Positions 14,079 to 45,587 of a stretch of 64,000 bases of DNA are shown one piece after another (positions within the stretch are counted from its first letter, which is position 1; the number at the start of each line of letters is the position of its first letter). The notes below the pieces were generated by a model. That model was not told where the DNA came from. It made no database searches and worked only from the letters and a program-made list of their open reading frames with translations. This stretch comes from an uncultured Candidatus Saccharibacteria bacterium (GTDB taxonomy: Bacteria > Patescibacteriota > Minisyncoccia > Phycocordibacterales > UBA9973). The stretch covers positions 7,199 to 71,198 of the forward strand of contig CAZCXF010000004.1 of NCBI GenBank assembly GCA_964502615.1, read 5' to 3'. The position numbers and the translations under genes are program-made.

Positions 14079-14088
14079 AAATACCAAG

Positions 14089-14683: not shown

Positions 14684-15760
14684 CTAGTTAACTTCTTTTA
14701 TTTTATTTTTAATATCTTGTTCGAGATTTTTAACTTCTTTTAATTCTCCTATGAGACTAGCACTAGCAGATTCGAGTTCTGCTATTTCTTCTTCTAACTC
14801 ATTAATTTTACTTGTTTTTTGAGGATACCTATAAACAAAGTTTGCTCTTTTCTTTCTTAAGAAAATAAGGAGTAAGATAAATATTATAATTACAAGAGAA
14901 ATTATAACTATTGAGTTCATATTGCTTTTAAAATCAAAAGAAAATATGCCAGGGTTAATCTTTTCATTTGGTAAAGAAATCCATTTATCTATTATCTGTT
15001 GGTGTTCTTTTGCACTTATTTTTTGTAGACCTTTAGCTAATATAGAGCTCAATACAGTTTTATCTTTGGGTACGATAAAAGCCATTTTAGAATCAAGAGT
15101 AAGGCTACCAACCACTTTAATACTTCTCATTGATTGCTTTGATAATAGATATGTTAAAGATGCAGAATTAATAACAGTAGCATCTACTTCATTTAAGGCT
15201 ACTTTTTGTAATGCAAGTTCACCGTCTACAACTTCTTCTGTTATAACTCTTGGATAATTTTGTTTAATATAAGAAACAACCGGAGAACCTTTAATAACTG
15301 CTACGCTTCTATTATTGAAATCATCCAGTGTCATACCTTCGCGTGAGTCATAATCTTTGCGTACCGCTATAACTACCGGAAAAATTGCGTATGGTTCACT
15401 GAAAATAACCGGTAAATCTTGGTTTTTATCAATCTCTAGAGTCGATATATAGTCAACCTTAGGTTCGTTCATACTTAAGATTATGTCAGATCTGGTACGA
15501 GGAGTTATAAAATCAACTTTTATATCAAGCTTCTCGGCTACAAGTTTAATATAATCTACAAAAATTCCTTGTGATATATAAGAAGAATCATTGAATGAAA
15601 AAGGGGGGTTATTCCTCTCAGGAATAACAGAGATTGTATTATTCCTAGATGATAACCATATGTTTTCCTCACTACTTAGAAGATCTGATTGGGCGTTTGC
15701 GACCAAAAAAGGATTGGTAAAAAAAAGAGCTAATATAATATATATAGGGAATAATTTCAT
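14684..15760 (-). CDS. Secreted SBP_bac_3-like (family 3 solute-binding) domain, then a single TM helix and a short cytoplasmic coiled coil
   Basis: Signal peptide and ~250 aa periplasmic-binding-fold region. TM 'IVIISLVIIIFILLLIFL'. C-terminal heptad 'INELEEEIAELESASASLIGELKEVKNLEQDIK'. Confidence 0.55.
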   Translation of the reverse strand: MKLFPIYIILALFFTNPFLVANAQSDLLSSEENIWLSSRNNTISVIPERNNPPFSFNDSSYISQGIFVDYIKLVAEKLDIKVDFITPRTRSDIILSMNEPKVDYISTLEIDKNQDLPVIFSEPYAIFPVVIAVRKDYDSREGMTLDDFNNRSVAVIKGSPVVSYIKQNYPRVITEEVVDGELALQKVALNEVDATVINSASLTYLLSKQSMRSIKVVGSLTLDSKMAFIVPKDKTVLSSILAKGLQKISAKEHQQIIDKWISLPNEKINPGIFSFDFKSNMNSIVIISLVIIIFILLLIFLRKKRANFVYRYPQKTSKINELEEEIAELESASASLIGELKEVKNLEQDIKNKIKEVN

Positions 15761-15774
15761 GTTGTAATTATAAT

Positions 15775-16857
15775 TTAAGTTTCAATTTTTTTTATCTTCT
15801 CCTTTATATTTTCTTCAAGAGCTTTAACTTCATTTAATTCGTACATCAATCCCTTGCTTGTATCTTCAAGTTCAATAATTTCTTCTTTTAACTCCTCAAC
15901 TGCATCTAATTTAGCGTGCCTTCTTAGAGAAAAGTGTCCGTGCTTCTGTCTTAAAAGTAAAATTATTATTATAAAACAAAGAAGAATATATAATATTATT
16001 GTACTTAAATTACTCTTTACATAAGGTACAAAAGAACTTGCGGATTTTATTTCACTTGGTACTACTACCCATTTTTCTGTAATAACTTTACGATCATCAG
16101 TGCTTATTTGTTGCAATCCTTTATCTATAATTGATTGTAAGATTTCTTTATCTTTAGGAACTGCAAAAGATAGTTTATATTCAAATCCGGTACTTCCAAC
16201 GATCTTTACACTGTTTAGTACTTGTTTAGAGAGATAATATGACAGAGATGTTACATCTATAATTGCTGCATCAACTTCTCCCAATACTACTTGTTGTAAG
16301 CCTAGTTCATCGTCCGTCACAGATTCAATAACAACTCTTGGATTATTGGTTCTAACAAAATCTTCAACCGCATATTTACTACCAATAGCAACTTTTTTTC
16401 CAGTTAAATCGGCAAGAGTTAAATTACTTCCAATATCTATATCTTTCCTCACGACAATGACAGCGGGGCTCGTAATATATACATCAGAAAAATATAAAAA
16501 TTCACTTCGATCTTTAGTTTCTGACAGAGATGTAATAACATCACCTCTACTATCTTGTTTAACATCATCTAGGATCTGAGAAAGTGAGCGAGCTGGTAAA
16601 TACTCAATTTTGGCTCCCAACTTTTTAGCAACCATTTCAATATAGTCTATTGATAAACCCTGTGGGATTCTGGAAGAGGTTTGATATGAATATGGAGGAA
16701 AATTTTTCTCTGGATATACAACTATAGTGTTGTTACGAGACTTAAGCCACAAGTTTTCTTGGGGTGTTAATATATCACTATTAGCCATTATTATATTAGG
16801 GGAAATTGATATAAGGCCGAAAATACTTAGAAATACCAAGTGGCGGAATCTCTTCAT
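15775..16857 (-). CDS. Paralog of 14684..15760 (SBP_bac_3-like ectodomain + TM + C-terminal coiled coil)
   Basis: Collinear with its neighbour at ~40% identity, e.g. 'NLWLKSRNNTIVVYPE' vs 'NIWLSSRNNTISVIPE'. Confidence 0.55.
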   Translation of the reverse strand: MKRFRHLVFLSIFGLISISPNIIMANSDILTPQENLWLKSRNNTIVVYPEKNFPPYSYQTSSRIPQGLSIDYIEMVAKKLGAKIEYLPARSLSQILDDVKQDSRGDVITSLSETKDRSEFLYFSDVYITSPAVIVVRKDIDIGSNLTLADLTGKKVAIGSKYAVEDFVRTNNPRVVIESVTDDELGLQQVVLGEVDAAIIDVTSLSYYLSKQVLNSVKIVGSTGFEYKLSFAVPKDKEILQSIIDKGLQQISTDDRKVITEKWVVVPSEIKSASSFVPYVKSNLSTIILYILLCFIIIILLLRQKHGHFSLRRHAKLDAVEELKEEIIELEDTSKGLMYELNEVKALEENIKEKIKKIET

Positions 16858-16876
16858 AGTTTACATAATACCATAT

Positions 16877-18022
16877 CTATTCCCTTTTTTCAGCAGGAAC
16901 GGGAGATATTGGGGCTTGAGATAGAATCTTATCCTGACGCTCCAACTCATGCTCTGTAAGTTGTATTTTCTCTTCTTCTAGACCCATTTTACGTTTTAGG
17001 ATACGCATACGTCTTGATGAATACCAAGGTATAAAGTATATAAGCATTATCAAACCAACTATTGGTATAAGCAGTATTAGTATATTGATGAATATAATTA
17101 GTGCTTTTATGATTTTACTATCATTTACAAATAATCTGACCCCGAGTCCTGGCTTATTAATATTGTTGTCATTATCTACCAAAAATGGTGTTGCATTATA
17201 GACACCCGCAACTAGATTGTTAGGTGTAATATATTCAAATAATCCTTTGTCGTTGTTTTTAACCAAGACATCAGTTAGACGTTTCTTTTTGGATTGTATA
17301 AAGTCCATAAACTGCTCACCAAAAGACTTACTAGAAACTTCTTCAAAAGATAATTTGGTTAGGGCATTAGGTTCTCCTTTTCCTTTCAAATAAGCACTAT
17401 CCTTTGAAAGTACTGATTGCGAATATTCGGTTATCACAGGCAACGCCAGCAATTTATTATTATTTGTCTTAGCAATTGGCCTTATTAAGTCGAGAGCTCC
17501 AGAAGCTATAATATTAAAACTTGTAGAATTTAATCCATTTATTATATTAGTTCCGAGTCCATCATTTGCAAGTATTGATCCTTCATTAAAAGACACTGTT
17601 GCATTACCAGTCTTCTTAGCTTGAAATACTATGTGAAAAATACTACCTCCTTGTCCAGTGTATCCAGGATTTAATATCACTCCTTCAAAAGATATTTTAT
17701 TTCTACTAACATTTGGATCATGTGTCCATATATTCAAAATACTATTATCCCTTGAAATAGAACTTATTTGTATCAAATCCCCAGGGAATGTAATAGACCC
17801 TGAGACAGCGTTTATTGCTTGGTCTGGTGATTTAACTTTGACATCGATTGTTATATTTTCTCCTTCCGATACCGTCGTCTGAGATTTACTTAGAAAAAGT
17901 GATGCTTGGCCTGCATATACAGGAGTAGCAATAAATACTACTAATATTAGAACACTATATATTATAGTTCTTACGTAGTATTTCATCTTTTTCTTTTTAC
18001 CACAAAAAACAGAAAATAGCAA
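16877..18022 (-). CDS. Membrane-anchored surface protein with an N-terminal cohesin-like domain
   Basis: Signal/TM, then 'ISFEGVILNPGYTGQGGSIFHIVFQAKKTGNATVSFNEGSILANDGLGTNII' resembling the cohesin beta-sandwich C-terminal strands. C-terminal TM anchor 'IIFINILILLIPIVGLIMLIYF'. Confidence 0.4.
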   Translation of the reverse strand: MLFSVFCGKKKKMKYYVRTIIYSVLILVVFIATPVYAGQASLFLSKSQTTVSEGENITIDVKVKSPDQAINAVSGSITFPGDLIQISSISRDNSILNIWTHDPNVSRNKISFEGVILNPGYTGQGGSIFHIVFQAKKTGNATVSFNEGSILANDGLGTNIINGLNSTSFNIIASGALDLIRPIAKTNNNKLLALPVITEYSQSVLSKDSAYLKGKGEPNALTKLSFEEVSSKSFGEQFMDFIQSKKKRLTDVLVKNNDKGLFEYITPNNLVAGVYNATPFLVDNDNNINKPGLGVRLFVNDSKIIKALIIFINILILLIPIVGLIMLIYFIPWYSSRRMRILKRKMGLEEEKIQLTEHELERQDKILSQAPISPVPAEKRE

Positions 18023-18852
18023 GATATTAATATAATAAATACTCCTAGCAATTGAAGTGATGATAGCAAACCAGGTATCTCAACACTAGATTCTCTAATA
18101 TTACCATTGAAATCCAGAGCCCGGACAATGATTGATCTTTTTACTATTCCCTTTGATATCTCAAAAGGGCTCACAACATCCTTCCAATAGCTATGTGAAT
18201 CTTTTATTTGATATTTTTCTACTCCAGAAATAGTATCAGTAGTAAAGAAAGATATCATCGATGGCGTTTTAGAGAAAAATCCTGAAGGAATGTATTCAAC
18301 TACAAATGGTTCCGGTGGCTCTTTATCCCCGCTACTATTCTCAGTAAGATTTATTTTTTGATCTTCTGGTATGTTAATTAAAGTCGTTGCATTGTTTCTG
18401 ACATGGCCTAGGGGCGTTCCAAGGCCATCATTTTGTAGAATACTAGAATCACTAATAGTAAATTCACCTGTGCCATTTATTTTTGGAGAAAACAATAACT
18501 CAGTTATAGGTATAGGTTGTAATCCAACTTTATCAGGGTCATACAAGCCTTCAACTCCACCAGGAATAATCCCAGAAAAATGAATTTTACCTCCGTCATC
18601 TTTTGGAGTTTGAAGCCATAATTTTTTTATACCACCATCTTCTTTGTAACCTTTAAATACAAAAAGCTCTTTGGGATATTCTATTGTAATATCCATAGAG
18701 TTAACTGATACCCCTCCAGAATTTAGATTTACCAATACACTAAATTGACCTGTGCTTTCTATTTTATTTGGAGCAACAATAGAAACATCAGCTGCATATG
18801 CAACCAATGTACTACTTAGAAATATTGCAACTATTAGTAAAAAATTTTTCAT
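17983..18852 (-). CDS. Second membrane-anchored cohesin-like protein (paralogous domain)
   Basis: 'KIHFSGIIPGGVEGLY…GTGEFTISDSSILQNDGLGTPL' shares the 'IL(A/Q)NDGLGT' motif with the upstream protein. C-terminal TM anchor. Confidence 0.4.
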   Translation of the reverse strand: MKNFLLIVAIFLSSTLVAYAADVSIVAPNKIESTGQFSVLVNLNSGGVSVNSMDITIEYPKELFVFKGYKEDGGIKKLWLQTPKDDGGKIHFSGIIPGGVEGLYDPDKVGLQPIPITELLFSPKINGTGEFTISDSSILQNDGLGTPLGHVRNNATTLINIPEDQKINLTENSSGDKEPPEPFVVEYIPSGFFSKTPSMISFFTTDTISGVEKYQIKDSHSYWKDVVSPFEISKGIVKRSIIVRALDFNGNIRESSVEIPGLLSSLQLLGVFIILISCYFLFFVVKRKR

Positions 18853-18875
18853 ATCTTTATTATTTTAATAATACA

Positions 18876-19772
18876 TTAACCAGTCCAATAAAAAGCGAGA
18901 ATTGAAAAATCGACTAGATTAATAATATTGTCATTGTTAGTATCCACGCACCTTGGTGGGTTATCCTTACCATACCAGAAAGCTGCAACTGAGAAATCGG
19001 TAATGTTAATGACTTGGTCTGCGTTGCAATCTCCAGGAATATTGTTGGTTAGATCAACGCTTAAAATATTTGCTTCTCCTATTGTAAACTGAATTACTTT
19101 ACTTATTTTTTTATCATCATGATAATTGACGTGTAGATTGTAACTTCCCTTTTTAAATCCTAAGAGTGGTAAAACAAGTTTATATTTACCATCACTTCCA
19201 CTAGTTAGGTTGAATATCTTATTTGGAACTCCTTCTATGACAACATCTAAAAATTGGTTAGGTAATGAATAACCCAGTACTCCTAAATAATCACCTTGTT
19301 TTACTTCTGTCTTATCTGTAGCAATCGTTGGCGGGAAACGAATACCGCTAACCTGAGTAAGATAATCGATTTTTGCAACAATTGGATAATTAAGTAGGAT
19401 TGATTGCCTATTTGCTTTATCTATCGCATAAAGTGTATATAAGACATTTGATTTATACAATTCGCTAAAAGTTATACTAAAATATCCACTATTATCGGCA
19501 ACTGTGGTTCCTTTTGGGACTCCATCTTTCCATACGTGAACAGTAGCACCTGGATAAGCCCAACCAGAGAAAACAATTCCACTAAAGCGCCCACTATGAC
19601 ATCCACTACAATTATCATCAAGTGGTGTTGCGAAACCACCTACAGTTGCTGTAACAGATACATTTTCAGGAGAACTTACAATAGTAAAACCAAATACTGG
19701 TTGAATAGAAATCAGTAAAAAAAATATAAAGGAGATAAATTTTATAACATTTTTTTTATACATGATTGGCAC
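18876..19772 (-). CDS. Secreted protein with an Ig-like beta-rich body and a C-terminal type I dockerin-like double Ca-binding repeat
   Basis: 'DCNADQVINITDFSVAAFWYG…DTNNDNIINLVDFSILAFYW'. Both repeats match D-x-N-x-D-x3-N-x2-D followed by a hydrophobic helix. Confidence 0.6.
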   Translation of the reverse strand: MPIMYKKNVIKFISFIFFLLISIQPVFGFTIVSSPENVSVTATVGGFATPLDDNCSGCHSGRFSGIVFSGWAYPGATVHVWKDGVPKGTTVADNSGYFSITFSELYKSNVLYTLYAIDKANRQSILLNYPIVAKIDYLTQVSGIRFPPTIATDKTEVKQGDYLGVLGYSLPNQFLDVVIEGVPNKIFNLTSGSDGKYKLVLPLLGFKKGSYNLHVNYHDDKKISKVIQFTIGEANILSVDLTNNIPGDCNADQVINITDFSVAAFWYGKDNPPRCVDTNNDNIINLVDFSILAFYWTG

Positions 19773-20787
19773 CGTTTGGTGTATTCATACCAAGACGAGC
19801 CTTCTGTATAATATGTCGATTGTAACGTCGAATCAGTTTCTTACCACCCCAGAATACAATTATAAAGATAACAGCTAGACATATAAGCAATTGCCAAGGA
19901 AGTACGAAGAAGAAAACTGTCTCAGTTGCACGAGTTGCATTTGTACCATATAAAACATTTAATTTTGCAAAGTAAGGTCCAAAAGCATAGTTGTGCCATT
20001 CATAAAGTGCTTGATCAAAGAAATTAGCTATTAAACCAGTTGGAGCTATATAATCTTTTGATCTTGGTTTTTTAACCCAATCAACATTAAATTTTCGAGT
20101 ACTTTTAGGGAGTATATTTCCTCCACCTGGATTAGCATCAATAGTATCTTCTGGTATGTAAATTAAGTCATGCATTTTTATCTTACCAACTGGTTTTATT
20201 CTGTCTCCTCCATCATTTTTAAAACGATAACTAAAAGATACTGGTAATGTAGTATAAAAGATTTTTTTATCTTTCATTGAGAAATCAAGTAGTCCTCCCT
20301 CTTCTTTCACATCTCCGTTAACCGATAGCAATATCAATATTCCAGCTCGAGCACCGATTGAAAGTCCTGCCCCTTCTGTATCTGGAGTCGTACTCCAAAA
20401 TATTGCAGCGAAATGTCCTCCTGGCTCAGCGTTTTTAGGAATATTAATATGGAAGTTTAAAGTTTTAGATTCTTTAGGTTTTAAAGTTACAGAAGAATCT
20501 GTAGTCATCCAAGTTCCTAGATCTTCTTTAGCATTAACAAATGAAGGGTTACCAGATTCTCCAGAAGCTTCGAAGTTAGCAAATGAAGAGTAATATGTGA
20601 TTAGACCATCACTTTCATTAGTAAGGATTATTTCTTTAGTAATAGACTCACCAGGATTACCTGTAACTTCTATTCTTACGGGAGAAAGTGTAATAGCATA
20701 CGCACTACCTCTAAACCCAAGGAACAAAGCAAGGGTTAGAACCAAGAAGGTAATCTGTCTTCTTTTGTTGAAGTAAGTACGAGTCAT
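19756..20787 (-). CDS. Secreted, C-terminally TM-anchored Ig-fold protein (DUF916/CscA-like or PapD-chaperone-like)
   Basis: Signal peptide. 'ITLSPVRIEVTGNPGESITKEIILTNESD' resembles the first strand motif of pilus chaperones and DUF916. C-terminal TM 'LLICLAVIFIIVFWGG' plus a basic tail. Confidence 0.4.
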   Translation of the reverse strand: MTRTYFNKRRQITFLVLTLALFLGFRGSAYAITLSPVRIEVTGNPGESITKEIILTNESDGLITYYSSFANFEASGESGNPSFVNAKEDLGTWMTTDSSVTLKPKESKTLNFHINIPKNAEPGGHFAAIFWSTTPDTEGAGLSIGARAGILILLSVNGDVKEEGGLLDFSMKDKKIFYTTLPVSFSYRFKNDGGDRIKPVGKIKMHDLIYIPEDTIDANPGGGNILPKSTRKFNVDWVKKPRSKDYIAPTGLIANFFDQALYEWHNYAFGPYFAKLNVLYGTNATRATETVFFFVLPWQLLICLAVIFIIVFWGGKKLIRRYNRHIIQKARLGMNTPNGANHV

Positions 20788-20797
20788 TAAATTTAGA

Positions 20798-22009
20798 TTA
20801 GAATGTAGCAGTTGCTATAAATGTAAGAGTGTCGGCGTAGTCATTGTGAGCAGGAACAGCGCCGCTTATTGAAGCATTAACTGCAACCTGAGCACGACCA
20901 CCTGCAAGGAGACCGGATGATGAAACCATGTTATCTCCAGTTGTAGTTAAACCTTTAACATCGTTAGTACCACCATCTGCTGCACATGTACCAGCGTTGT
21001 AAGGTGCTGCTTTTGAAAGAGTTCCCGTTGTTTGAGTTACAGATATAACACAAAGACCATAGTTTGTTGTGTTTGTAGCCATTGCTGCAGCTGTGTTTGT
21101 AATCTTATCTGCAGGAGTCGAAGTAGACACTAAACCGTTTGCACCATTTGCATTTTTAACAGTCACCACTACTCCACTAGGAGCATTTGTATCAAGGTCC
21201 ATCATTATTCTATTAATACCATCAGTTGCTCCAGAAACTTTAACGTCTGATGTACTTAAAGATCCAAGTGGTACATTGTATGGTGCACTAGTATTTTCAC
21301 TACCAGCTGTACCTACGTCTAGATCAAAAGTAAGTGTAGAATTAACTGTCGCAGTAACATTTACTTGGTCATCATCTACTATACCGTAAGCAATTTGACT
21401 TGAGTGTGAATTAACGAATGTTGTAAAACAAGCTGCTCCAGATTGTTCGTCACACATTTTAAAGTCAATATTTGTAGCAGCAACAGATGAAGGATTTGTA
21501 AGTACTCCTGTACCTCCAGTCTCACCCTTTATTGTAAATGTAATAGCTGAGGCAGTTGAGGAAGAAGTAAAAGTTGATGCAGGTTTAACAGTAAAAATTA
21601 AATTTGTAGTATCTATTGCGACACACACACTTTGAGCAGTAGTAGCAGTACAAGTAATAGTACCTGCACCTGCAGACACAGCATCTATAGTGTGAGAACC
21701 GTTACTATCAGAGAAAGCAAAGTCAGATGTTTGCCATGTTCCACTTTGAGAAAAGGTTGCAGGAAAGTCTACTTGAAATCCATCAAGATTACCTCCTGTT
21801 ACATCAAAGTCTACTCCAGTAGGCATTGTAAATGTTACAACATGGTCTGCATTAGCACTTATTTTAAGACGAGTTGCTGTATCTTTTGATGCAGTAAAAC
21901 TCGCAGCAGTTGCCAATTGTGGACCAAATGAATAAACGACTATAAGTGCAATTGTTAGAAAGGCACTTAAAAATTTAGAGAACGTAGATTTTATAATGTG
22001 TGTGCTCAT
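20798..22009 (-). CDS. Secreted Thr/Ser/Ala-rich beta protein ending in a Csu/SCPU-pilin-like (or WxL-like) C-terminal strand 'AHNDYADTLTFIATATF'
   Basis: Signal peptide. The C-terminal motif resembles the CsuA/B terminus 'GDYKDTLLVTVNF'. Confidence 0.45.
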   Translation of the reverse strand: MSTHIIKSTFSKFLSAFLTIALIVVYSFGPQLATAASFTASKDTATRLKISANADHVVTFTMPTGVDFDVTGGNLDGFQVDFPATFSQSGTWQTSDFAFSDSNGSHTIDAVSAGAGTITCTATTAQSVCVAIDTTNLIFTVKPASTFTSSSTASAITFTIKGETGGTGVLTNPSSVAATNIDFKMCDEQSGAACFTTFVNSHSSQIAYGIVDDDQVNVTATVNSTLTFDLDVGTAGSENTSAPYNVPLGSLSTSDVKVSGATDGINRIMMDLDTNAPSGVVVTVKNANGANGLVSTSTPADKITNTAAAMATNTTNYGLCVISVTQTTGTLSKAAPYNAGTCAADGGTNDVKGLTTTGDNMVSSSGLLAGGRAQVAVNASISGAVPAHNDYADTLTFIATATF

Positions 22010-22125
22010 TTTGAATAAATGATTTTATTGATTAATAATAATTAAATTTTCTACCCTTATTTTACCACAACAAGATACGAAATCCTATATATAAACTATA
22101 AGATGTGGATAACTTTGGCCTTTAG

Positions 22126-23217
22126 TTAAAAGGTCCCTGTGGCGATAAAGGTCAATGTATCTGCATAATCATTATGGGCTGGAGTCGAAGTACTATTTTC
22201 TGCATTTACTCTAATTTCTGACCGTCCACCAACAATACCAGATGATACAGTAAGAATATTCCTAGATGTATTATCAACTAGACCAACCGAATTAACGTGT
22301 CCACTTGTGCATGGTGATCCATCATAAGGATTTGCTTTAGTTAAAGTACCTCCTGAAGATTGAGTAACTGAACCGACACAGAGTCCATATCTTGCAACAT
22401 TGGGAGCCATTGTTCCAGTAGTTGATGGAATTGAATCAGTAGGTACAGATGTTGATTTTAGAGCACCATTCTTAGATAAAACTGTAACAGCTGCACCACC
22501 AGATGCATTTGTATCTAAATCTACCCATATAGAATTTATAGTACTATTATCAGAATTGCTTGCCTGGGCTGTCGACAATGTACCGAGAGCTACATTATAT
22601 GGAGCAACTGTATTAGTATTTGAAGTAGAAGTATCAATATCAAATGTAATGGTCTGAGGTATAACAGTTGCGCAAACTTTTCTTGTGTATGCAGTTGTGT
22701 TCCCTACTGTTGCATTATCAGCTGGGTTTGCAGGATTTCCAATCATAGAAAATAAAGTTGTATCGTAACCAGTGCAGTTTGTATCTTGATAAGCAATAGT
22801 TATAGTATCGTTTCCAGCTGCATCAGATAAACATGCACTTTGTCCATACGTGTTAACACTTGTTTCCTGTACGTGAGCATTTGTTACAGCAGATAGTCTT
22901 ACAATTCTCTGAAAATTTCCAGAGCAAGAATTCCCAATAGCTGAAACGCTACTACAACATACAACATTGCCGTCATAATTTGCATTTGATTGACTCGGAA
23001 GTTCTGCGTGAGCATTTGTCGAACCTGACATGCGAAGTAATGTAGTGAAACCACTTGTATTACAAGATGACTGTGATACTACGTTGCAAGAAAGCGCCGC
23101 ATATATACGCGAAACTGGATAAAGAGCCGACACAACAAAAACGATTATTAATATAAAATTAAAACGTTTTGTCTTTAAGTGGCCCTGTTGTTTTTTCTGG
23201 TACTGGTGGTGGTACAT
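22126..23217 (-). CDS. Paralog of 20798..22009 (identical C-terminal 'AHNDYADTLTFIATGTF'); the true start is probably an internal Met
   Basis: Shared blocks 'APYNV(P/A)LG(S/T)LST', '(M/V)DLDTNA(P/S)', 'YGLCV…VTQ' and the same C-terminus. The 5' end overlaps 23159..23677. Confidence 0.45.
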   Translation of the reverse strand: MYHHQYQKKQQGHLKTKRFNFILIIVFVVSALYPVSRIYAALSCNVVSQSSCNTSGFTTLLRMSGSTNAHAELPSQSNANYDGNVVCCSSVSAIGNSCSGNFQRIVRLSAVTNAHVQETSVNTYGQSACLSDAAGNDTITIAYQDTNCTGYDTTLFSMIGNPANPADNATVGNTTAYTRKVCATVIPQTITFDIDTSTSNTNTVAPYNVALGTLSTAQASNSDNSTINSIWVDLDTNASGGAAVTVLSKNGALKSTSVPTDSIPSTTGTMAPNVARYGLCVGSVTQSSGGTLTKANPYDGSPCTSGHVNSVGLVDNTSRNILTVSSGIVGGRSEIRVNAENSTSTPAHNDYADTLTFIATGTF

Positions 23218-23677
23218 CTTTTTTATTATTTATAGGAGCGACTTCAATAATTTTATCTATACTTGGTCTATACAAAACGGCCTTACCAGCTTCTGTAAAA
23301 ATTAGTACTTTGTCGTCTTTCTGAGCACCTGAGAAGAAAGCTTGGTCTTTTAATTTTACTGGATCAGATACAGTAGCTATAGTAGGTTCTTCTCCAGTGG
23401 GTATTAGATATAGTTTTGCCACTTTACCTAACAAATCTTTTGCTTCTTTTCTAGCACCTTCTTGAGTGCTCTTTTCTAGATTGTGTAATTTATAGTAAAA
23501 ATACGCGCTCAGAGCGACTGCAACTATTAGAATTATGAATATAACCATATTAAGAAACTTTTGTTTGGTCATGGAAGATCTTTTTTTAACGATTTTTGTT
23601 GCAAAAACACTATCTTGTGATTCATATAAGTCAGAATCATCTGATTTACTATTCCGGAAGTCAATAGACATAAACAT
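23159..23677 (-). CDS. Hypothetical single-pass membrane protein
   Basis: TM 'FLNMVIFIILIVAVALSAYFYY'. No homology recognised. Confidence 0.35.
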   Translation of the reverse strand: MFMSIDFRNSKSDDSDLYESQDSVFATKIVKKRSSMTKQKFLNMVIFIILIVAVALSAYFYYKLHNLEKSTQEGARKEAKDLLGKVAKLYLIPTGEEPTIATVSDPVKLKDQAFFSGAQKDDKVLIFTEAGKAVLYRPSIDKIIEVAPINNKKDVPPPVPEKTTGPLKDKTF

Positions 23678-23734: not shown

Positions 23735-24982
23735 ATGAGGGAAGTGAACAAAAATAAGCCAAAAAAGTGTTTAATTTGTAATAGCTATAATCTAGCCCTT
23801 TATCTTGATCTAGGTCAAACAGCCTTGGCAAACTCTTTTTTGAAGAAATCTGACTTAAAGAAAAAAGAATCCAAATTCCCTCTTAAAGTATATTATTGTA
23901 AAGATTGCCACCTTGCTCAGCTTGGCCATATTGTAGATAGAAAAGTCTTATTCCAAAAATATGCCTGGTTTTCATCTGCATCCCCCCAACTTGAAAAATA
24001 TTTTGAAAAATACGCAAAGAACGTATATAGTAGATTCCCTAATCAAGCTAAAAAATATGTATTTGAGATAGCAAGTAACGATGGAATTCTTTTAAAATAT
24101 TTTAAAAAGTTAGGTGTAGAAGTTCTTGGTATTGATCCTGCTAAAAATATTGCCCGCGTTGCAAACAAAAACGGTATAAAAACTTTACCAGCATTCTTCA
24201 ACTTAAACTCAGCTAAAAAAATTTCAAAACAATTCGGCAAAGCAGGTATAATATCTGCCAACCATGTCATCGCTCATGTAGATGATCTGCACAATATAAT
24301 GAGTGGGGTTAAAGATTTGTTAGACGAAAACGGAGTTTTTGTATTTGAGGTGCAATATCTAGGGGACTTAATTAAATACAACGAATTTGACAATACATAT
24401 CATGAACATACTTTTTATTTTTCTTTATCACCACTAATAACTCTTTTAAGTAAACACAATCTATCTATATTTGATGTAGAAGAAGTAGAAGCTCAGGGTG
24501 GATCTATCAGAGTATATGCGAGCCACTCTTCTTCCATGTTACCAAAAAGCAATAATGTAAAAAGGATTTTAACTAGAGAAAAAAATCGGGGTTTGTATAA
24601 ATTAAAAACATATAAAGACTTCAGTAAAAAACCAGAAACAATAAAAAAAGACTTGGTGGAATTATTAAGTAGATTAAAAAAACAAGGGAAAGTTATAGTA
24701 GGTTACGGAGCATCAGCCAAGGGTAATACTCTCCTTCAATACTCTAATATAGATAAAAAATATATAGACTATATAATAGACGACGCGCCTATTAAACAAA
24801 GTAAGTTTACTCCTGGAACACATATACCAATATTTGCTTCAAACCAATTAAAGAAAAAAACTCCTGATTATATACTTATACTTTCTTGGAATCACGCGAA
24901 GTCAATTATGGAAAAAGAATCTTGGGTTAAAAAGAGGGGTGTAAAATTTATATTACCAGTTCCTAAAGTAAAGATAATATGA
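23735..24982 (+). CDS. SAM-dependent sugar C-methyltransferase of the TylCIII/NovU type (zinc-ribbon + methyltransferase + C-methyltransferase C-terminal domain)
   Basis: N-terminal 'CLICNSYNL…CKDCHLAQL' zinc ribbon typical of Methyltransf_13/14 dTDP-sugar C-methyltransferases. 415 aa. Confidence 0.7.
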   Translation: MREVNKNKPKKCLICNSYNLALYLDLGQTALANSFLKKSDLKKKESKFPLKVYYCKDCHLAQLGHIVDRKVLFQKYAWFSSASPQLEKYFEKYAKNVYSRFPNQAKKYVFEIASNDGILLKYFKKLGVEVLGIDPAKNIARVANKNGIKTLPAFFNLNSAKKISKQFGKAGIISANHVIAHVDDLHNIMSGVKDLLDENGVFVFEVQYLGDLIKYNEFDNTYHEHTFYFSLSPLITLLSKHNLSIFDVEEVEAQGGSIRVYASHSSSMLPKSNNVKRILTREKNRGLYKLKTYKDFSKKPETIKKDLVELLSRLKKQGKVIVGYGASAKGNTLLQYSNIDKKYIDYIIDDAPIKQSKFTPGTHIPIFASNQLKKKTPDYILILSWNHAKSIMEKESWVKKRGVKFILPVPKVKII

Positions 24983-25791
24983 AGAAAAAGTTAAAAATAT
25001 TAGTCACAGGAGGAAGTGGGATGGTAGGAAGCCAAGTAAAATTTGGTATAAAGCCAAGCCATAAGGAGCTTGATATAAATAACTCTACATCTATAGAAAA
25101 AGCTGTAAAAAAATACAAGCCAGATGTCATACTACATTTAGCGGCTTTTGCAAATATGCTCGGTTGTGAAGGAAGTAAAATAAAAGCGAAAAAAATAAAT
25201 GTTACAGGAACACAGAATATAGCTCGTGCCTGTAAGAAAAACGACATGAAGCTAGTCTATATGTCCACTTGTGCTGTCTTTGATGGTAAAAAGAAAACAC
25301 CTTATAAAGAAAGTGATCGAGCTAAAACCTTAAATGTATACGGCGAAACAAAACTTGGGGGTGAAAAAATTATACAAAAAATACTTCCGAATGCCTTGAT
25401 AGTACGCACGGGCTGGCTATTTGGTGGCAATAAAACTGATAAAAAGTTTGTGCAACTAACTTACCAAAAATTTAAGAATGGTGAGGAGGTAATGGCAACA
25501 TCCGATCGAAAAGGTTCGCCTACATACGTGAAAGATTTATTGGATACAATAGAAAAATTGATATACCAAAACAAAAGTGGAATATATCATGTAGTAAATT
25601 CTGGTACTGCTTCATACGCTGATATTGCAAAAGAAATCAAAAAAGTAGGTAAATTTAAACAAGAAATCAAGAAAGTTTTGGCGCGTGATATAGAAAATAA
25701 AAAACTAAAAAGGGGTAAGAATGAATCTCTTGCTTCTTCAAAAATAAAATTAAGATCTTGGAAAGTTGCCCTAAAAGAGTATCTTAACTAG
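24979..25791 (+). CDS. dTDP-4-dehydrorhamnose reductase-like NAD(P)H sugar reductase (RmlD family)
   Basis: 'ILVTGGSGMVGS', 'YMSTCAVFDG', 'PYKESD', 'NVYGETKLGGE', 'IVRTGWLFG', 'SDRKGSPTYVKDL', 'YHVVNSGTASYADIAKEI'. Confidence 0.75.
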   Translation: MKKKLKILVTGGSGMVGSQVKFGIKPSHKELDINNSTSIEKAVKKYKPDVILHLAAFANMLGCEGSKIKAKKINVTGTQNIARACKKNDMKLVYMSTCAVFDGKKKTPYKESDRAKTLNVYGETKLGGEKIIQKILPNALIVRTGWLFGGNKTDKKFVQLTYQKFKNGEEVMATSDRKGSPTYVKDLLDTIEKLIYQNKSGIYHVVNSGTASYADIAKEIKKVGKFKQEIKKVLARDIENKKLKRGKNESLASSKIKLRSWKVALKEYLN

Positions 25792-25792
25792 T

Positions 25793-25821
25793 TTGACTTT
25801 AAGTCAAAAATATGTTATAAA
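25793..25821 (+). promoter_or_regulatory. Sigma-70-like promoter TTGACT-17 bp-TATAAA for the DUF218 gene; the -35 lies in the 16-bp perfect palindrome TTTGACTTAAGTCAAA
   Basis: Seen in sequence. The downstream gene has a GGAGGTG SD and a TTG start at 25894. Confidence 0.35.
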
Positions 25822-25893
25822 ACAAACAAGACATAAACATACATTCATATCTACCCTTCTTAACTGATGGGTATACAAAGACGGAGGTGAACA

Positions 25894-26589
25894 TTGAAAA
25901 ATATAATTAATCGCCTAAAGAATAAGATTCTAACGGCAATCCAGTCATCTGCAAAACGCATCGATCTGCAAATCAAGCTTTCGCTTATGATTATGAGCGA
26001 TAGGCCAACCAAACAAGTTGATGTTGCTTTGCTCTTTGGCCGAGCCAATGGAGATGACAACAATAATTTTTTTGGTCTTGTGGTTTACCTTTACAAGATT
26101 GGTCTCATAAAGAATATCTTGATAAATGGATCCCGTGGAGAAAGACAAGGCAAAACAATTCCTGGCGAAAGCTGGGCTGGTGGTGAAGTCTGGGCTGACA
26201 GGTTGCAAAAGCTAGGTATAAGTAAGAATGCAATTCACTTCTTTAAACCTGCTTATAATACTGCAGATGAGGGAAGAAAAATGCTTGCTTATGCTAAAAA
26301 GCAGGGATGGAAAACTGCGGTTTCAATAGCACAACCACACCAGTTGCTTCGTTGTATAGCAGGATTGGTCCGTTCTATGAAAACAGAGGAGTATCCGATG
26401 CGTGTATATTCAGCTGCACCACAGAGTGTAGATTGGTTTGAAAAATGTGCTGGTTCACAAGGACTATATGATATGCCTCGGCATGATCACATTGGGCTTG
26501 AGTATTCCAGAATCCAGCAGTACGTTTTTGATCTTGCTACGCTTGGTCAGGTCTTTGAGTACTACCAAACCCGTGAGTTAATCACGTAA
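25894..26589 (+). CDS. DUF218 / YdcF (ElyC/SanA-like) family protein
   Basis: 'NTADEGRKMLAYAKKQGWKTAVSIAQPHQLLRCIA' matches DUF218 'NTxENA…VTSxxHMxRA'. Confidence 0.65.
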   Translation: MKNIINRLKNKILTAIQSSAKRIDLQIKLSLMIMSDRPTKQVDVALLFGRANGDDNNNFFGLVVYLYKIGLIKNILINGSRGERQGKTIPGESWAGGEVWADRLQKLGISKNAIHFFKPAYNTADEGRKMLAYAKKQGWKTAVSIAQPHQLLRCIAGLVRSMKTEEYPMRVYSAAPQSVDWFEKCAGSQGLYDMPRHDHIGLEYSRIQQYVFDLATLGQVFEYYQTRELIT

Positions 26590-26612
26590 AAAATAGAATC
26601 TTATTTTATTTG

Positions 26613-26660
26613 CCCCCAGATTAGTTTGTTTATAAAACAGACTGATCTGGGGTTTTTTTA
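26613..26660. terminator. Bidirectional rho-independent terminator (CCCCAGATTAGT…ACTGATCTGGGG + T7) between the convergent DUF218 and gtrA-like genes
   Basis: 12-bp stem with one mismatch, flanked by an A-run and a T-run. Confidence 0.6.
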
Positions 26661-27067
26661 TTGAACACAAACTTCTCGTATACAAAAAAGTTCCAACATG
26701 CAAGAATTGCTAAAGTAAAAACTTTTGAGAGCATTTTGTCGATATGTAATATTTCTACAAAAAAAAGCATTAATAATATATTTATACCGAGATTCACCAT
26801 TGATACTAAGAAAAAAAGAATTGCTTGTTTCTTAGTCTCACTCTTACTAGTATTTTGAAAAGTAATATACTTCTGCAAATAGAACCCCACAAAAACTGAA
26901 AGCACAAAAGATGTTATCGATGCTAATAAATACCAAACATGAAACCAATTTAAAAATATATAAAAAAGTACTAGATTAGATAAAGCTGCTGTTCCTCCAG
27001 CTAGTATAAATAGTATTGCTTTATATATTTTTTTATTTAGCATTGAGCCTATTTTTGTAAAATTCAA
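26630..27067 (-). CDS. GtrA-family membrane protein (polyprenyl-phosphate-sugar flippase-like)
   Basis: 145 aa, 4 TM. 'LFILAGGTAALSNLVLFYIF…YLLASITSFVLSVFVGFYLQKYITF' is typical of GtrA. Confidence 0.75.
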   Translation of the reverse strand: MNFTKIGSMLNKKIYKAILFILAGGTAALSNLVLFYIFLNWFHVWYLLASITSFVLSVFVGFYLQKYITFQNTSKSETKKQAILFFLVSMVNLGINILLMLFFVEILHIDKMLSKVFTLAILACWNFFVYEKFVFNKKTPDQSVL

Positions 27068-27998
27068 AAGTCTTCTTTATCCCCTCTTCAAAATTAGTTT
27101 TGGCCTTGAAGCCTAGCTCATCTCGAAGCTCATCTGTATTTATAGAATATCTAAAGTCATTTCCCTTTCTGTCTGGTACATATTCGATACTAGATTCATC
27201 CACTCCTCCCAGTGCTAGTATTTTATCTGTAATCTCTTTATTAGTCAGTTCGTTGTTGGCACCTATATTATATATTCCCCCCGATACTCCTTTGTGGAAA
27301 ATTATATCAATAGCTTCTACATGATCCCCTACATATATCCAATCCCTTACATGTTCACCTTTTGCATGAAGTGGAACTTTCTTACCTTCAAGCAAAAGTT
27401 TTATAAACTTAGGTACCAACTTTGTATAATCTTGATTGGGACCATAATTATTTGTACATCTAGATATTATTGTATCTAAGCCATACATTTCATGATAAGT
27501 GCGCACGATCAAATCGGCAGAAGCCTTTGATGCACTATATGGATTATTTGGTAAGAGAGGTGAATTTCTATCAAAAGATTTATCGCCGATTTTTAGTGAT
27601 CCATAAACTTCATCCGTTGATATCTGGAAAAATCTATTAATTTTATATTTGCGAGCAAGTTCAAGCAAGTTGTGAGTACCTAAAATATTTGTCTCTATAA
27701 ATAGTCTCGGGTCTTCGATACTTGCGTCTACATAACTCTCTGCAGCAAAATGTATTATGTCAGTTATCTGATAAAGGGAGAATATTTTTTCAAGTGAAAC
27801 AGTATCTCTTATATCTACTTTCTCAAACTTATAATTCTCTTCTTTATCTACCGTGACATTCGCAATATCTCCTGCAGAAGTTAGGCAATCGATATTTATA
27901 AAAAAGTAATTCTTATATTTAGGTACATAAATATTTAGGAAATTACTCCCTATAAATCCCATGCCTCCTGTGACCAAAATTGTTTTATCGTATTTCAT
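27033..27998 (-). CDS. rfbB: dTDP-glucose 4,6-dehydratase
   Basis: 'ILVTGGMGFIGSNF' and 'YSASKASADLIVRTYHEMYGLDTIISRCTNNYGPNQ' catalytic YxxxK. 321 aa. Confidence 0.9.
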   Translation of the reverse strand: MKYDKTILVTGGMGFIGSNFLNIYVPKYKNYFFINIDCLTSAGDIANVTVDKEENYKFEKVDIRDTVSLEKIFSLYQITDIIHFAAESYVDASIEDPRLFIETNILGTHNLLELARKYKINRFFQISTDEVYGSLKIGDKSFDRNSPLLPNNPYSASKASADLIVRTYHEMYGLDTIISRCTNNYGPNQDYTKLVPKFIKLLLEGKKVPLHAKGEHVRDWIYVGDHVEAIDIIFHKGVSGGIYNIGANNELTNKEITDKILALGGVDESSIEYVPDRKGNDFRYSINTDELRDELGFKAKTNFEEGIKKTFEFYKNRLNAK

Positions 27999-28004
27999 AG
28001 GTTA

Positions 28005-45185: not shown

Positions 45186-45188
45186 AAA

Positions 45189-45584: not shown

Positions 45585-45587
45585 AGA

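What the first reader, a model, noticed from the sequence alone, without database searches (positions are those of the whole stretch)
19756..23217. Chaperone-like Ig-fold anchor plus two paralogous secreted proteins ending in a Csu/SCPU- or WxL-type donor-strand motif
Two paralogous secreted Thr/Ser-rich proteins:
- They are 403 aa and 363 aa.
- They share blocks such as 'APYNVxLGxLST', 'DLDTNA' and 'YGLCV'.
- They share an almost identical C-terminus, 'AHNDYADTLTFIAT(A/G)TF'.
- That terminus strongly resembles the C-terminal strand of archaic chaperone-usher pilins (CsuA/B ends '…GDYKDTLLVTVNF') and of Gram-positive WxL-domain surface proteins.

The adjacent 343-aa protein:
- It has a signal peptide, an Ig-like N-terminal domain ('LSPVRIEV…ESITKEIILTNESD', PapD/DUF916-like) and a C-terminal TM anchor with a basic tail.
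- This topology matches CscA (DUF916) of lactobacillus/enterococcus WxL 'cell-surface complex' loci.

Interpretation:
- No usher-sized outer-membrane protein is present.
- A monoderm Csc-like complex, with the DUF916 anchor presenting WxL-like partners, is therefore more plausible than a classical chaperone-usher pilus.
- Either way the locus is an unusual find in a CPR-type genome.
Basis: partly seen in the sequence, partly recalled or inferred. Interest (0 to 1): 0.7.

Follow-up and report, generated by a model that had tools for sequence, protein, structure and literature searches.

The report
Usher-less pilus-like operon, CPR bacterium
A gene cluster conserved across many ultra-small (CPR/Patescibacteria) bacteria pairs a membrane-anchored relative of pilus chaperones and of the Gram-positive WxL-interacting protein with two or more secreted Ig-fold "pilin-like" proteins; it most likely builds a thin surface fibre or complex like the Pam pili first seen by cryo-EM in 2026.

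Summary
Three adjacent minus-strand genes encode a 343-aa protein (signal peptide, two beta-sandwich domains, C-terminal TM helix) and two secreted Thr/Ser-rich paralogs of 403 and 363 aa. The paralogs share a ~180-aa C-terminal domain (52% identity) ending in AHNDYADTLTFIAT(A/G)TF.

**The paralogs.** They are not demonstrable WxL or SCPU proteins: no Pfam hit, no W-x-L motif, hhalign E 0.04-0.5. They are two-domain Ig-like proteins with weak structural similarity to chaperone-usher pilins (CsuA/B, CfaB).

**Gene order.** In 80 metagenomic loci the order is fixed:
- a distal subunit with a variable N-domain
- 1-3 "major" subunits carrying a conserved N-terminal segment and a conserved inter-domain linker that AF2 models poorly
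- the anchor
- a dockerin-type protein
- TM-anchored cohesin-like proteins

No usher is present.

**Closest system.** This matches the logic of the Pam pilus (bioRxiv 2026). Homology to Pam proteins could not be tested.

**Best reading.** An usher-less, anchored-chaperone, donor-strand fibre (about 0.5). The main rival is a static WxL/Csc-like complex (about 0.3). The family is common in Patescibacteria, not rare.

The parts
23159..23677 (-). 172-aa protein with one N-terminal TM segment; first gene of the conserved cluster (role unknown)
   Evidence: TM segment at residues 41-59. Orthologue in L003 at 54% identity. Present in 19 of 33 loci with enough upstream DNA.
22126..23217 (-). 363-aa secreted distal/'tip-like' subunit: Cys-rich N-domain plus shared C-terminal Ig-like domain. 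It lacks both the N-terminal segment and the linker motif of the major subunits.
   Evidence: The distal Cdom gene lacks the N-terminal motif in 35/35 loci. It lacks the linker motif in 40 of 43; the 3 exceptions are ORFs truncated at contig ends.
22666..23097 (-). Cys-rich N-domain of the 363-aa protein (8 Cys; repeated R[ML]S[GA]xTNAH motif); candidate adhesin/lectin module
   Evidence: Sequence and Cys positions. Homologous domain in L001 and L003. Found in about half of the distal genes. No Pfam hit.
22129..22665 (-). C-terminal Ig-like domain (CTD) of the 363-aa protein
   Evidence: 52% identity to the CTD of the 403-aa protein. Matches the Cdom HMM.
20798..22009 (-). 403-aa secreted 'major' subunit: signal peptide, conserved N-terminal segment, N-domain, linker, C-domain
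   Evidence: AF2 model with pLDDT 89.1 shows two beta domains. 380 homologues; those that carry a source name are nearly all Patescibacteria. Three sequential Cys pairs: 120/129, 186/194, 320/342.
21386..21904 (-). N-terminal domain (residues 36-208), including the conserved mature N-terminus ASFTASKDTATRLKISANADH
   Evidence: The N-terminal segment stays conserved even where the rest of the N-domain diverges: 48% identity over residues 6-66 against L003.
21335..21385 (-). Inter-domain linker VDDDQVNVTATVNSTL (residues 209-225); candidate donor strand
   Evidence: Lowest pLDDT of the mature protein (block 211-220 = 60) and no secondary structure assigned. Yet it is among the most conserved stretches (0.79; D212, D214, V216, A220, V222). 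The motif is present in major subunits and absent from distal ones.
20801..21334 (-). C-terminal Ig-like domain (residues 226-403) shared by all subunits; candidate strand acceptor
20801..20848 (-). Terminal strand motif AHNDYADTLTFIATATF, at the exact C-terminus
   Evidence: Most conserved block of the family (0.90). Strand 395-400 has pLDDT 94-97. It is the only segment that aligns to WxL motif 2, and not significantly.
19756..20787 (-). 343-aa membrane-anchored WxLIP/PapD-like protein (candidate chaperone and/or anchor)
20275..20694 (-). Domain 1 (residues 32-171), DUF916/PGBD-like and PapD-like
   Evidence: Pfam PF06030 E 1.3e-4, 22.4 bits, below the 27.3 cut-off. 20/42 members hit it. hhalign probability 80-85% with the narrow profile.
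20347..20391 (-). Loop TPDTEGAGLSIGARAG (residues 133-147) before strand ILILLSV; candidate strand-donating element
   Evidence: pLDDT 65-72 in an otherwise confident domain. The second half, GxSIGAKxG, is near-invariant. It aligns to the loop plus 'GxxIKN' of WxLIP.
19903..20274 (-). Domain 2 (residues 172-295), DUF3324/HBD-like
   Evidence: Aligned to WxLIP HBD only with the broad profile. No PF11797 hit.
19840..19902 (-). C-terminal TM helix, followed by a basic cytoplasmic tail
18876..19772 (-). 298-aa secreted Big_6 plus dockerin-like protein; always the next gene after the anchor
   Evidence: Big_6 E 1.1e-6; Dockerin_1 E 0.0068. The L003 orthologue passes the Dockerin_1 cut-off. Directly downstream in 54/54 loci.
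17983..18852 (-). 289-aa cohesin-like protein with C-terminal TM
   Evidence: BLASTP to L001/L003 orthologues and to the Pfam-Cohesin-positive 449-aa protein of L003. TM segment. Present in 49/49 loci.
16877..18022 (-). 381-aa cohesin-like protein with C-terminal TM
   Evidence: Residues 20-171 align to residues 15-176 of the L003 449-aa protein, whose residues 56-150 are Pfam Cohesin. TM segment.

Best explanation
The locus most likely encodes an usher-less, Sec-dependent surface fibre of a monoderm CPR (Paceibacteria-type) cell, assembled by beta-strand complementation like the recently described Pam pilus.

**Proposed steps**
1. All components are exported by Sec.
2. The 343-aa protein stays in the membrane through its C-terminal helix. 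Its PapD/WxLIP-like ectodomain binds the incomplete C-terminal Ig-like domain of newly exported subunits by inserting a strand. The candidate strand is the conserved, poorly modelled loop 133-147 plus strand 148-156.
3. The 403-aa protein is the major subunit. A conserved strand of the next subunit replaces the chaperone strand in the C-domain groove, which is bordered by the first strand (LTFDLD) and the terminal strand (TLTFIAT). This links subunits head to tail. The favoured donor is the inter-domain linker 209-225, by analogy with Pam. The alternative donor is the conserved mature N-terminus.
4. The 363-aa protein has the acceptor domain but neither candidate donor, and it carries a Cys-rich N-domain. 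It would sit at the distal tip as the adhesin.
5. The downstream dockerin-type and TM-anchored cohesin-like proteins may tether or decorate the structure.

**Shown here**: the domain architectures, homology of the anchor to WxLIP, PapD-like and pilin-like folds, strict synteny, absence of an usher, and the distribution of the candidate donor segments.

**Inferred**: physical binding, strand exchange, polymerisation, and the order of subunits.
For: **Anchor**
- Two beta-sandwich domains plus a TM helix.
- Profile-profile homology to WxLIP at probability 97.6-98.3%, with clean controls.
- For WxLIP, AF2 predicts insertion of a loop strand into its WxL partner (PMC10599100).

**Subunits**
- The AF2 model has two beta domains.
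- The model has structural similarity to CfaB and CsuA/B pilins and to the CfaE tip adhesin.
- The linker 211-220 has pLDDT 60 while being among the most conserved stretches. The terminal strand is the most conserved block.
- There are three Cys pairs.

**Synteny in 80 loci**
- A Cdom gene lies directly upstream of the anchor in 47/47 loci.
- At least 2 Cdom genes are present in 35/38 loci.
- The distal Cdom gene lacks the N-terminal motif in 35/35 loci.
- All family genes are on one strand in 76/76 loci, with a median gap of 18 nt.
- The linker motif is present in 45/60 major subunits and absent from all 40 untruncated distal ones.

**No usher**: none was found among the large ORFs or in the related loci.

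**Pam pilus precedent** (bioRxiv 10.64898/2026.03.03.709456)
- Two-domain pilins in which an NTD is joined by a linker strand to an open CTD, and the linker is donated to the neighbouring subunit.
- FimC/PapD-like chaperones with a C-terminal TM helix.
- A tip pilin without a linker.
- Paired cysteines.
- No usher.
Against: - No multimer prediction or experiment was possible, so strand insertion and polymerisation are unproven.
- Homology to PamA-E could not be tested. No sequences were available, and PDB 25PZ/25QA are absent from the fold libraries.
- Which segment is the donor is ambiguous.
- There is a single anchor gene here, against three (PamC, PamD, PamR) in M. amalyticus.
- The anchor's demonstrated homologue, WxLIP, is thought to hold partners in a non-polymeric complex.
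- The low pLDDT of a linker could simply reflect inter-domain flexibility.
Confidence: 0.5

Rival explanations
1. A static, non-polymerising cell-surface complex of the WxL/Csc type. The membrane-anchored WxLIP homologue holds one 'small' partner (403 aa) and one 'large' partner with a variable N-domain (363 aa) at the envelope through their shared C-terminal domain. The complex presents adhesive or enzymatic modules, perhaps together with the cohesin-dockerin proteins, and forms no fibre.
For: - The only demonstrated homology is anchor to WxLIP.
- The commonest WxL cluster is one WxLIP plus two WxL proteins, one small and one large, with the shared domain always C-terminal (PMC10599100 and PMC9772566). 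The arrangement is the same here.
- The terminal strand DYxDTLTF resembles WxL motif 2 (YtttLtW). The TNAxxGYxItV motif of related subunits resembles WxL motif 1 (GTNAGWxLxV). Each is the best local hhalign match.
- Cohesin-dockerin modules in the operon fit a 'surface complex' idea.
Against: - The partner domain is not detectably WxL: Pfam is negative, there is no W-x-L, and hhalign E is 0.04-0.5.
- Loci often carry 2-4 tandem 'major' paralogs with a conserved N-terminal segment and linker that the distal gene always lacks. A 1:1:1 complex does not explain this pattern, but a tip-plus-shaft fibre does.
- The nearest taxonomic precedent (Pam, a CPR organism) is a filament.
Confidence: 0.3
2. 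Co-located but independently acting surface proteins: an S-layer-like or adhesin paralog pair and an unrelated membrane Ig-fold protein, with no specific interaction between them.
For: - No interaction was tested.
Against: - Adjacency and gene order are invariant in every locus with enough sequence (47/47, 54/54, 49/49), with short gaps on one strand.
- The anchor belongs to a family whose characterised members bind their cluster partners (PMC10599100).
Confidence: 0.08
3. A classical or archaic chaperone-usher pilus (Csu/SCPU type) whose usher is encoded elsewhere.
For: - The anchor has a PapD-like fold.
- The subunit model has CsuA/B and CfaB-like structural matches.
Against: - There is no usher in the window or in 80 loci.
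- The chaperone-like protein is TM-anchored rather than soluble.
- There are no PapD_N/C, Usher, Fimbrial or SCPU Pfam hits at meaningful E.
- CPR cells are generally held to lack an outer membrane (general knowledge, not tested here).
Confidence: 0.02

Closest known systems
Pam pilus of Candidatus Mycosynbacter amalyticus (Saccharimonadia, CPR): PamA/PamB/PamE pilins, PamT tip, PamC/PamD TM-anchored chaperones, PamR anchor (bioRxiv 10.64898/2026.03.03.709456)
   Same: - Found in a CPR host.
- All components carry a signal peptide.
- The pilins have two domains (beta-sandwich NTD, linker, open Ig-like CTD). PamB is 38.7 kDa; the subunit here is 403 aa.
- The linker and the CTD are the conserved parts.
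- Cysteines are paired.
- The tip subunit lacks the donor segment.
- The PapD-like protein has a C-terminal TM helix.
- There is no usher.
   Different: - Sequence or structural homology could not be tested here.
- Pam was reported mainly in Saccharimonadia and Microgenomatia; this family is named mostly from Paceibacteria, Nomurabacteria, Uhrbacteria and Kuenenbacteria.
- There is one anchor gene here instead of PamC, PamD and PamR.
- The tip here carries a large Cys-rich or other variable N-domain, whereas PamT is single-domain.
- The operon also carries a dockerin-type protein and 2-3 TM-anchored cohesin-like proteins.
- No ATP synthase genes lie nearby.
WxL / Csc cell-surface clusters of Lactobacillales, Listeria and Bacillus: WxLIP (CscA; DUF916+DUF3324+TM) plus small and large WxL proteins
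   Same: - The anchor is a true, remote homologue of WxLIP over both domains, with the same topology.
- The cluster has one anchor plus at least two secreted partners sharing a C-terminal ~180-aa domain, one of them with a variable N-terminal module.
- WxLIP is predicted to insert a strand into its partner.
   Different: - The partner domain gives no WxL signal: there is no Trp-x-Leu, and PF13731 and profile comparisons are negative.
- The anchor lacks the NQIDKxxxYFDLK signature and falls below the PF06030 cut-off.
- There is no LPXTG protein.
- The host phylum differs.
- Tandem 'major' paralogs with conserved donor-like segments suggest polymerisation, which is not proposed for WxL.
Archaic and alternative chaperone-usher pili (Csu, CupE, CFA/I)
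   Same: - The accessory protein has a two-domain PapD-like fold.
- The subunit model has structural matches to Ig-like pilins (CsuA/B, CfaB).
- The protein ends exactly at an aromatic residue after the last strand.
- The tip is organised as an adhesin domain plus a pilin domain (CfaE-like).
   Different: - There is no usher and no outer membrane.
- The chaperone-like protein is membrane-anchored.
- The subunits have an extra N-domain.
- There is no Pfam-level relationship.

Membership tests
WxLIP (DUF916/PGBD + DUF3324/HBD + TM helix), tested for the 343-aa protein | Signal peptide, two tandem Ig-like domains and a C-terminal TM helix; length ~320-380 aa | tested here: met
   AF2 model, hydropathy, 343 aa.
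WxLIP, tested for the 343-aa protein | Pfam PF06030 (PGBD) above the gathering score | tested here: not met
   22.4 bits against a cut-off of 27.3, E 1.3e-4. 20/42 relatives hit at E <= 0.01; the best E among them was 1.9e-5.
WxLIP, tested for the 343-aa protein | Pfam PF11797 (HBD) match | tested here: not met
   No hit in the protein or in 42 relatives.
WxLIP, tested for the 343-aa protein | Profile-profile homology to bona fide WxLIPs across both domains | tested here: met
   hhalign probability 97.6% (E 4.8e-12, 211 columns) and 98.3% (E 2e-14). Controls, including a reversed template, give E >= 0.0026. The reference set was validated by Pfam and PDB.
WxLIP, tested for the 343-aa protein | Structural similarity to solved EfmWxLIP1 (PDB 9i1y) | tested here: met
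WxLIP, tested for the 343-aa protein | Conserved N-terminal NQIDKxxxYFDLK signature | tested here: not met
   The aligned position reads SPVRIEVTGNPGE.
WxL domain (PF13731), tested for the paralogs' C-terminal domain | Two Trp-x-Leu motifs on adjacent strands | tested here: not met
   Neither protein contains a W-x-L tripeptide (sequence). The equivalent positions have F/A, or Y/I in relatives.
WxL domain, tested for the paralogs' C-terminal domain | Pfam or profile-level sequence relationship | tested here: not met
   No PF13731 hit. hhalign against 50 true WxL proteins gives E 0.04-0.5, probability <= 1.2%.
WxL domain, tested for the paralogs' C-terminal domain | [quoted passage not shown] | tested here: met
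WxL domain, tested for the paralogs' C-terminal domain | WxL fold | not testable with these tools
   No WxL structure is in the PDB. The afdb50 library was unavailable.
Pam pilus system (CPR) | Two-domain pilin: beta-sandwich NTD, linker strand, open Ig-like CTD | tested here: met
   AF2 model: strands 39-208, unstructured linker 209-225, strands 226-400.
Pam pilus system (CPR) | The donated linker and the CTD site are the most conserved regions; the tip subunit lacks the linker | tested here: met
   Conservation 0.79 (linker) and 0.90 (terminal strand) against a mean of about 0.5. The linker motif is present in 45/60 major subunits and absent from 40/40 untruncated distal ones.
Pam pilus system (CPR) | PapD/FimC-like chaperone with a C-terminal TM helix in the same operon; no usher | tested here: met
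Pam pilus system (CPR) | Homology to PamA/B/E/T and PamC/D/R | not testable with these tools
   The sequences (WP_260763287.1 and others) are not held. PDB 25PZ/25QA are not in the libraries.
Pam pilus system (CPR) | Filament formed by donor-strand exchange | not testable with these tools
   This needs a multimer prediction or cryo-EM.
Chaperone-usher pili (including Csu/SCPU) | Outer-membrane usher | tested here: not met
   No usher among the large ORFs that gave Pfam hits; the 3776-aa ORF gave no hit at all. No conserved large gene is present in the 80 loci.
Chaperone-usher pili (including Csu/SCPU) | Soluble periplasmic PapD-family chaperone (PF00345/PF02753) | tested here: not met
   TM-anchored. 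No PapD Pfam hit. The similarity is at fold level only.
Chaperone-usher pili (including Csu/SCPU) | Subunit belongs to the Fimbrial or SCPU families | tested here: inconclusive

The most novel reading that the evidence does not exclude
The Firmicute WxL/Csc clusters and the CPR Pam-like pili may be two branches of one ancient monoderm machinery: a membrane-anchored PapD/WxLIP-type protein that caps and hands over strand-deficient Ig-like subunits without an usher. Under this reading, the Paceibacteria operon described here would be a third, very abundant branch that also recruits cohesin-dockerin modules. The anchor family has over 9000 clusters at 50% identity. If true, WxL proteins would also be assembled, and perhaps polymerised, by donor-strand complementation. 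This operon would then be one of the most widespread host-contact organelles of CPR bacteria.
Probability: 0.3. Interest if true: 0.75.

Novelty: new variant of a known kind. Interest (0 to 1): 0.6.

Why it matters
CPR/Patescibacteria are thought to live attached to host cells, yet very few of their surface structures have a molecular identity.

- This operon is strictly conserved and its families are large: the anchor has 9001 clusters at 50% identity, and the subunits have over 1100 clusters at 90% identity.
- It is entirely annotated as "hypothetical".
- If it builds a Pam-like fibre, that newly discovered pilus class would extend to the Paceibacteria/ABY1 part of the radiation. It would also define a tip-adhesin position whose variable N-domains are natural candidates for host recognition.
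- The demonstrated homology of the anchor to Firmicute WxLIP links a virulence-associated Gram-positive surface system to a CPR system. It suggests a shared strand-complementation mechanism that can be tested directly.

Tried and rejected
**Pfam, NCBIfam and PDB searches of the paralogs**
- Pfam and NCBIfam scans of the paralogs, of 39 and 37 relatives, and of divergent relatives from L001/L003 found nothing meaningful.
- Profile searches of PDB sequences with A1, A3 and A4 found nothing.

**Tests for a WxL relationship**
- hhalign of four differently built C-domain profiles against small and large WxL alignments was never significant.
- A hand-noticed colinear motif chain (hSFxxS...FG / TNAxxG[YW]x[IL]xV / YxxxxT[FYW]) is suggestive, but it was not counted as evidence.
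- No WxL structure exists in the PDB.

**Fold searches**
- The AFDB fold library was unavailable.

**Regulatory signals**
- The promoter and terminator scan of the operon was at or below shuffled expectation.
- The 116-nt gap between the paralog genes has no significant RNA structure (z = -0.4).

**Taxonomic labels**
- Labels for remote anchor relatives were mostly missing.
- One relative is named a DUF916 protein by UniRef, but the current Pfam model does not hit it.

**Sorting-signal idea**
- The idea that the C-terminal motif is a sorting signal was rejected. It is a buried terminal strand of a folded domain and occurs only in this family within the window.

Full report

Yes. The three ORFs lie on the minus strand exactly as described: 19756-20787 (343 aa), 20798-22009 (403 aa) and 22126-23217 (363 aa).

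The two longer proteins share only their C-terminal ~180 residues: 52% identity, E 3e-45. Both are about 26% Thr+Ser, have one N-terminal hydrophobic segment and have no C-terminal anchor.

The 343-aa protein has a signal-like N-terminus, a C-terminal TM segment and a basic tail.

The terminal motif occurs nowhere else in the six-frame translation of the window.

**2. The 343-aa protein**

Pfam gives only a sub-threshold match to PF06030 (WxLIP_PGBD, formerly DUF916): 22.4 bits against a cut-off of 27.3. Twenty of 42 relatives do the same.

An AF2 model (pLDDT 84) shows a signal helix, two beta-sandwich domains (residues 32-171 and 183-295) and a long TM helix.

To test homology properly I needed genuine WxL clusters. 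I retrieved 68 Firmicute loci by scanning genomes for the published DUF916 signature NQIDKxxxYFDLK. From these I extracted 55 WxLIP and 50 small WxL proteins. I confirmed representatives with Pfam (PF06030+PF11797, PF13731) and against the PDB.

- With the narrow family profile, hhalign gave probability 80-85% for domain 1 only.
- With 134 representatives at <= 50% identity from an exhaustive search, it gave probability 97.6-98.3%, E 5e-12 to 2e-14, over 211-214 columns spanning both domains.
- Unrelated beta-rich alignments and a reversed template gave E >= 0.0026.

The protein is therefore a genuine but divergent WxLIP homologue with a PapD-like fold. It lacks the NQIDK signature and falls below Pfam thresholds.

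A loop at residues 133-147 is poorly modelled (pLDDT 65-72). Its second half, GxSIGAKxG, and the following strand ILILLSV are nearly invariant. It aligns with the loop region of WxLIP. For WxLIP, AF2 predicts that a disordered hairpin loop becomes a strand that completes the WxL sandwich (PMC10599100). Whether the two loops are strictly equivalent is my inference.

**3. The paralogs**

No Pfam, NCBIfam or PDB-sequence relationship was found for them or for 76 relatives.

The AF2 model of the 403-aa protein (pLDDT 89) has an N-domain (strands 39-208), an unstructured linker (209-225) and a C-domain (strands 226-400).

- YweA 9.6, YcnI 9.5, SpaA-type pilins 8-9.3
- CfaB TM 0.5
- CfaE tip adhesin

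This amounts to a pilin-like fold, with no family assignment.

Against true WxL proteins, four differently built C-domain profiles gave E 0.04-0.5. The only aligned pieces were the terminal strand (AHxDYtDtLTFI ~ YtttLtWtL) or, for a sister subfamily, GTNAtsGYtItV ~ GtnaGWxLxV. There is no W-x-L motif. WxL membership is therefore not shown. A WxL fold comparison was impossible because there is no solved structure and the AFDB library was unavailable.

**4. Family and context**

All three proteins have hundreds of homologues, essentially all labelled Patescibacteria, Paceibacterota, Nomurabacteria, Parcubacteria or Uhrbacteria, and all "hypothetical". The anchor family has 9001 clusters at 50% identity with E <= 1e-3 and 929 with E <= 1e-30.

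A sister subfamily of subunits has a divergent C-domain that aligns colinearly with the window type. Its landmarks are ISFxVSDNxIYFGNL, TNAxSGYxITV, EQFGIR and AGxYxxxHTYVATATF.

In 80 metagenomic loci the order is invariant:
1. a small TM protein
2. a distal subunit with a variable N-domain
3. 1-3 major subunits
4. the anchor
5. a dockerin-type ~300-aa protein
6. 2-3 cohesin-like proteins with a C-terminal TM

The counts are:
- a C-domain gene directly upstream of the anchor in 47/47 loci
- at least two such genes in 35/38
- the dockerin-type gene directly downstream in 54/54
- cohesin-like genes in 49/49
- all family genes on one strand in 76/76, with a median gap of 18 nt

Orthologues in L003 pass the Pfam Dockerin_1 and Cohesin thresholds.

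Major subunits share a conserved mature N-terminus (A[AS]SxTSxKDTxTRLKxST), even where the rest of the N-domain has diverged. They also share a conserved linker, (I/L)xDDDQVxVTAxV. The distal gene lacks the N-terminal segment in 35/35 loci. It lacks the linker motif in all 40 untruncated cases and has Cys-containing or other junctions there instead.

In the 403-aa protein the linker has the lowest pLDDT of the mature chain (60). Yet it is among the most conserved stretches (0.79), and the terminal strand is the most conserved block (0.90). The protein has three sequential Cys pairs.

No usher-like gene exists in the window or in the loci.

**5. Literature**

A 2026 preprint (bioRxiv 10.64898/2026.03.03.709456) solved thin filaments of the Saccharibacterium Ca. 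Mycosynbacter amalyticus. Its main points are:
- PamA and PamB are two-domain pilins: a beta-sandwich NTD, a linker strand and an open Ig-like CTD that accepts the neighbour's linker.
- They carry paired cysteines.
- The operon encodes FimC/PapD-like chaperones with C-terminal TM helices (PamC/D), a tip pilin without a linker (PamT) and a TM-anchored RbmA-like terminator (PamR).
- There is no usher.
- The authors found Pam mainly in Saccharimonadia and Microgenomatia and suspected a wider distribution.

The locus here matches that logic feature by feature. The preprint does not mention WxLIP.

**6. Mechanism**

The best-supported reading (about 0.5) is an usher-less fibre assembled by strand complementation:
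- The anchored WxLIP/PapD-like protein caps the open C-domain of exported subunits.
- A conserved strand of the next major subunit displaces it. The linker is favoured by analogy with Pam; the N-terminal segment is the alternative.
- The 363-aa protein has an acceptor domain, no donor and a Cys-rich N-domain, so it would sit at the tip.

What is shown: architectures, anchor homology, folds, synteny, absence of an usher, and the major/distal distribution of the candidate donor segments.

What is inferred: binding, strand exchange and polymerisation.

The main rival (about 0.3) is a static WxL/Csc-like complex. It has the only proven homology on its side. It explains the tandem major paralogs and the systematic loss of two conserved segments in the distal gene less well.

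Independent co-located proteins (about 0.08) and a classical chaperone-usher pilus (about 0.02) are unlikely.

**7. Verdict**

The DUF916-like anchor, the absence of an usher and the monoderm logic hold up. The partners being WxL- or SCPU-type is not supported. The terminal motif is an acceptor-edge strand rather than a donor strand. The locus is common in CPR, not unusual.
- Novelty: a new variant of a kind described only in 2026, with two additions. One is demonstrated homology of the anchor to Firmicute WxLIP. The other is an invariant cohesin-dockerin module.
- Interest: 0.6.

Noticed in passing
window 16877-19772 (-): Three further genes belong to the same operon. One is a secreted Big_6 plus dockerin-like protein (298 aa). 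Two are cohesin-like proteins with C-terminal TM anchors (289 and 381 aa). Orthologues pass the Pfam Dockerin_1 and Cohesin cut-offs, and the module follows the anchor gene in 54/54 and 49/49 related loci. A membrane-anchored cohesin-dockerin pair fused to a pilus-like operon appears undescribed.
   Followed up: partly
window 22666-23097 (-), N-domain of the 363-aa protein: A Cys-rich domain (8 Cys) with a repeated R[ML]S[GA]xTNAH motif and no Pfam match. It recurs as the N-domain of the distal subunit in about half of the related loci. Other loci have different distal N-domains, up to 1091 aa. It is a candidate host-binding module.
   Followed up: partly
window 23159-23677 (-): A 172-aa protein with a single N-terminal TM segment heads the cluster and overlaps the start of the 363-aa ORF by 59 nt. 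It is conserved (54% identity in L003) and present in 19/33 loci. Its function is unknown.
   Followed up: partly
window 23735-28745: A deoxysugar and glycosylation gene set lies directly next to the Thr/Ser-rich subunit genes: sugar C-methyltransferase, RmlD-like reductase, GtrA-like protein, NDP-sugar 4,6-dehydratase and a GT2 glycosyltransferase. PamA in the 2026 preprint carries an O-linked modification.
   Followed up: no
window 31763-43093 (-): A giant 3776-aa ORF with no Pfam match and GC of 41-43%, against about 33% for the rest of the window. In locus L001 a 4856-aa Ig-like surface protein lies immediately upstream of the orthologous operon.
   Followed up: no
window 14684-16857 (-): Two tandem paralogous SBP_bac_3 solute-binding proteins. 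Each has a C-terminal TM segment and a coiled-coil-like acidic tail. They lie directly downstream of the operon.
   Followed up: no
window 14138-14641 (-): A 167-aa protein with an N-terminal methylation motif (type IV pilin-like) close to the operon. The genome therefore also encodes type IV pilin-like proteins.
   Followed up: no
window 10955-11971 (-): A CNNM+CBS (CorB/CorC-like) membrane protein lies about 8 kb from the operon. The Pam preprint reports a CorB-like gene conserved near pam operons. This may be coincidence.
   Followed up: no
window 11976-14087 and 43329-46364: The operon lies between gyrB and pheS/pheT, as in the distantly related contig L003. This chromosomal position seems conserved, while the window carries extra inserted genes (the sugar cluster and the giant ORF).
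   Followed up: partly
P0527 (Kuenenbacteria relative of the 343-aa protein): UniRef names this CPR protein 'DUF916 domain-containing protein'. The current Pfam model does not hit it at E <= 0.01, so database annotation of this family is inconsistent.
   Followed up: yes
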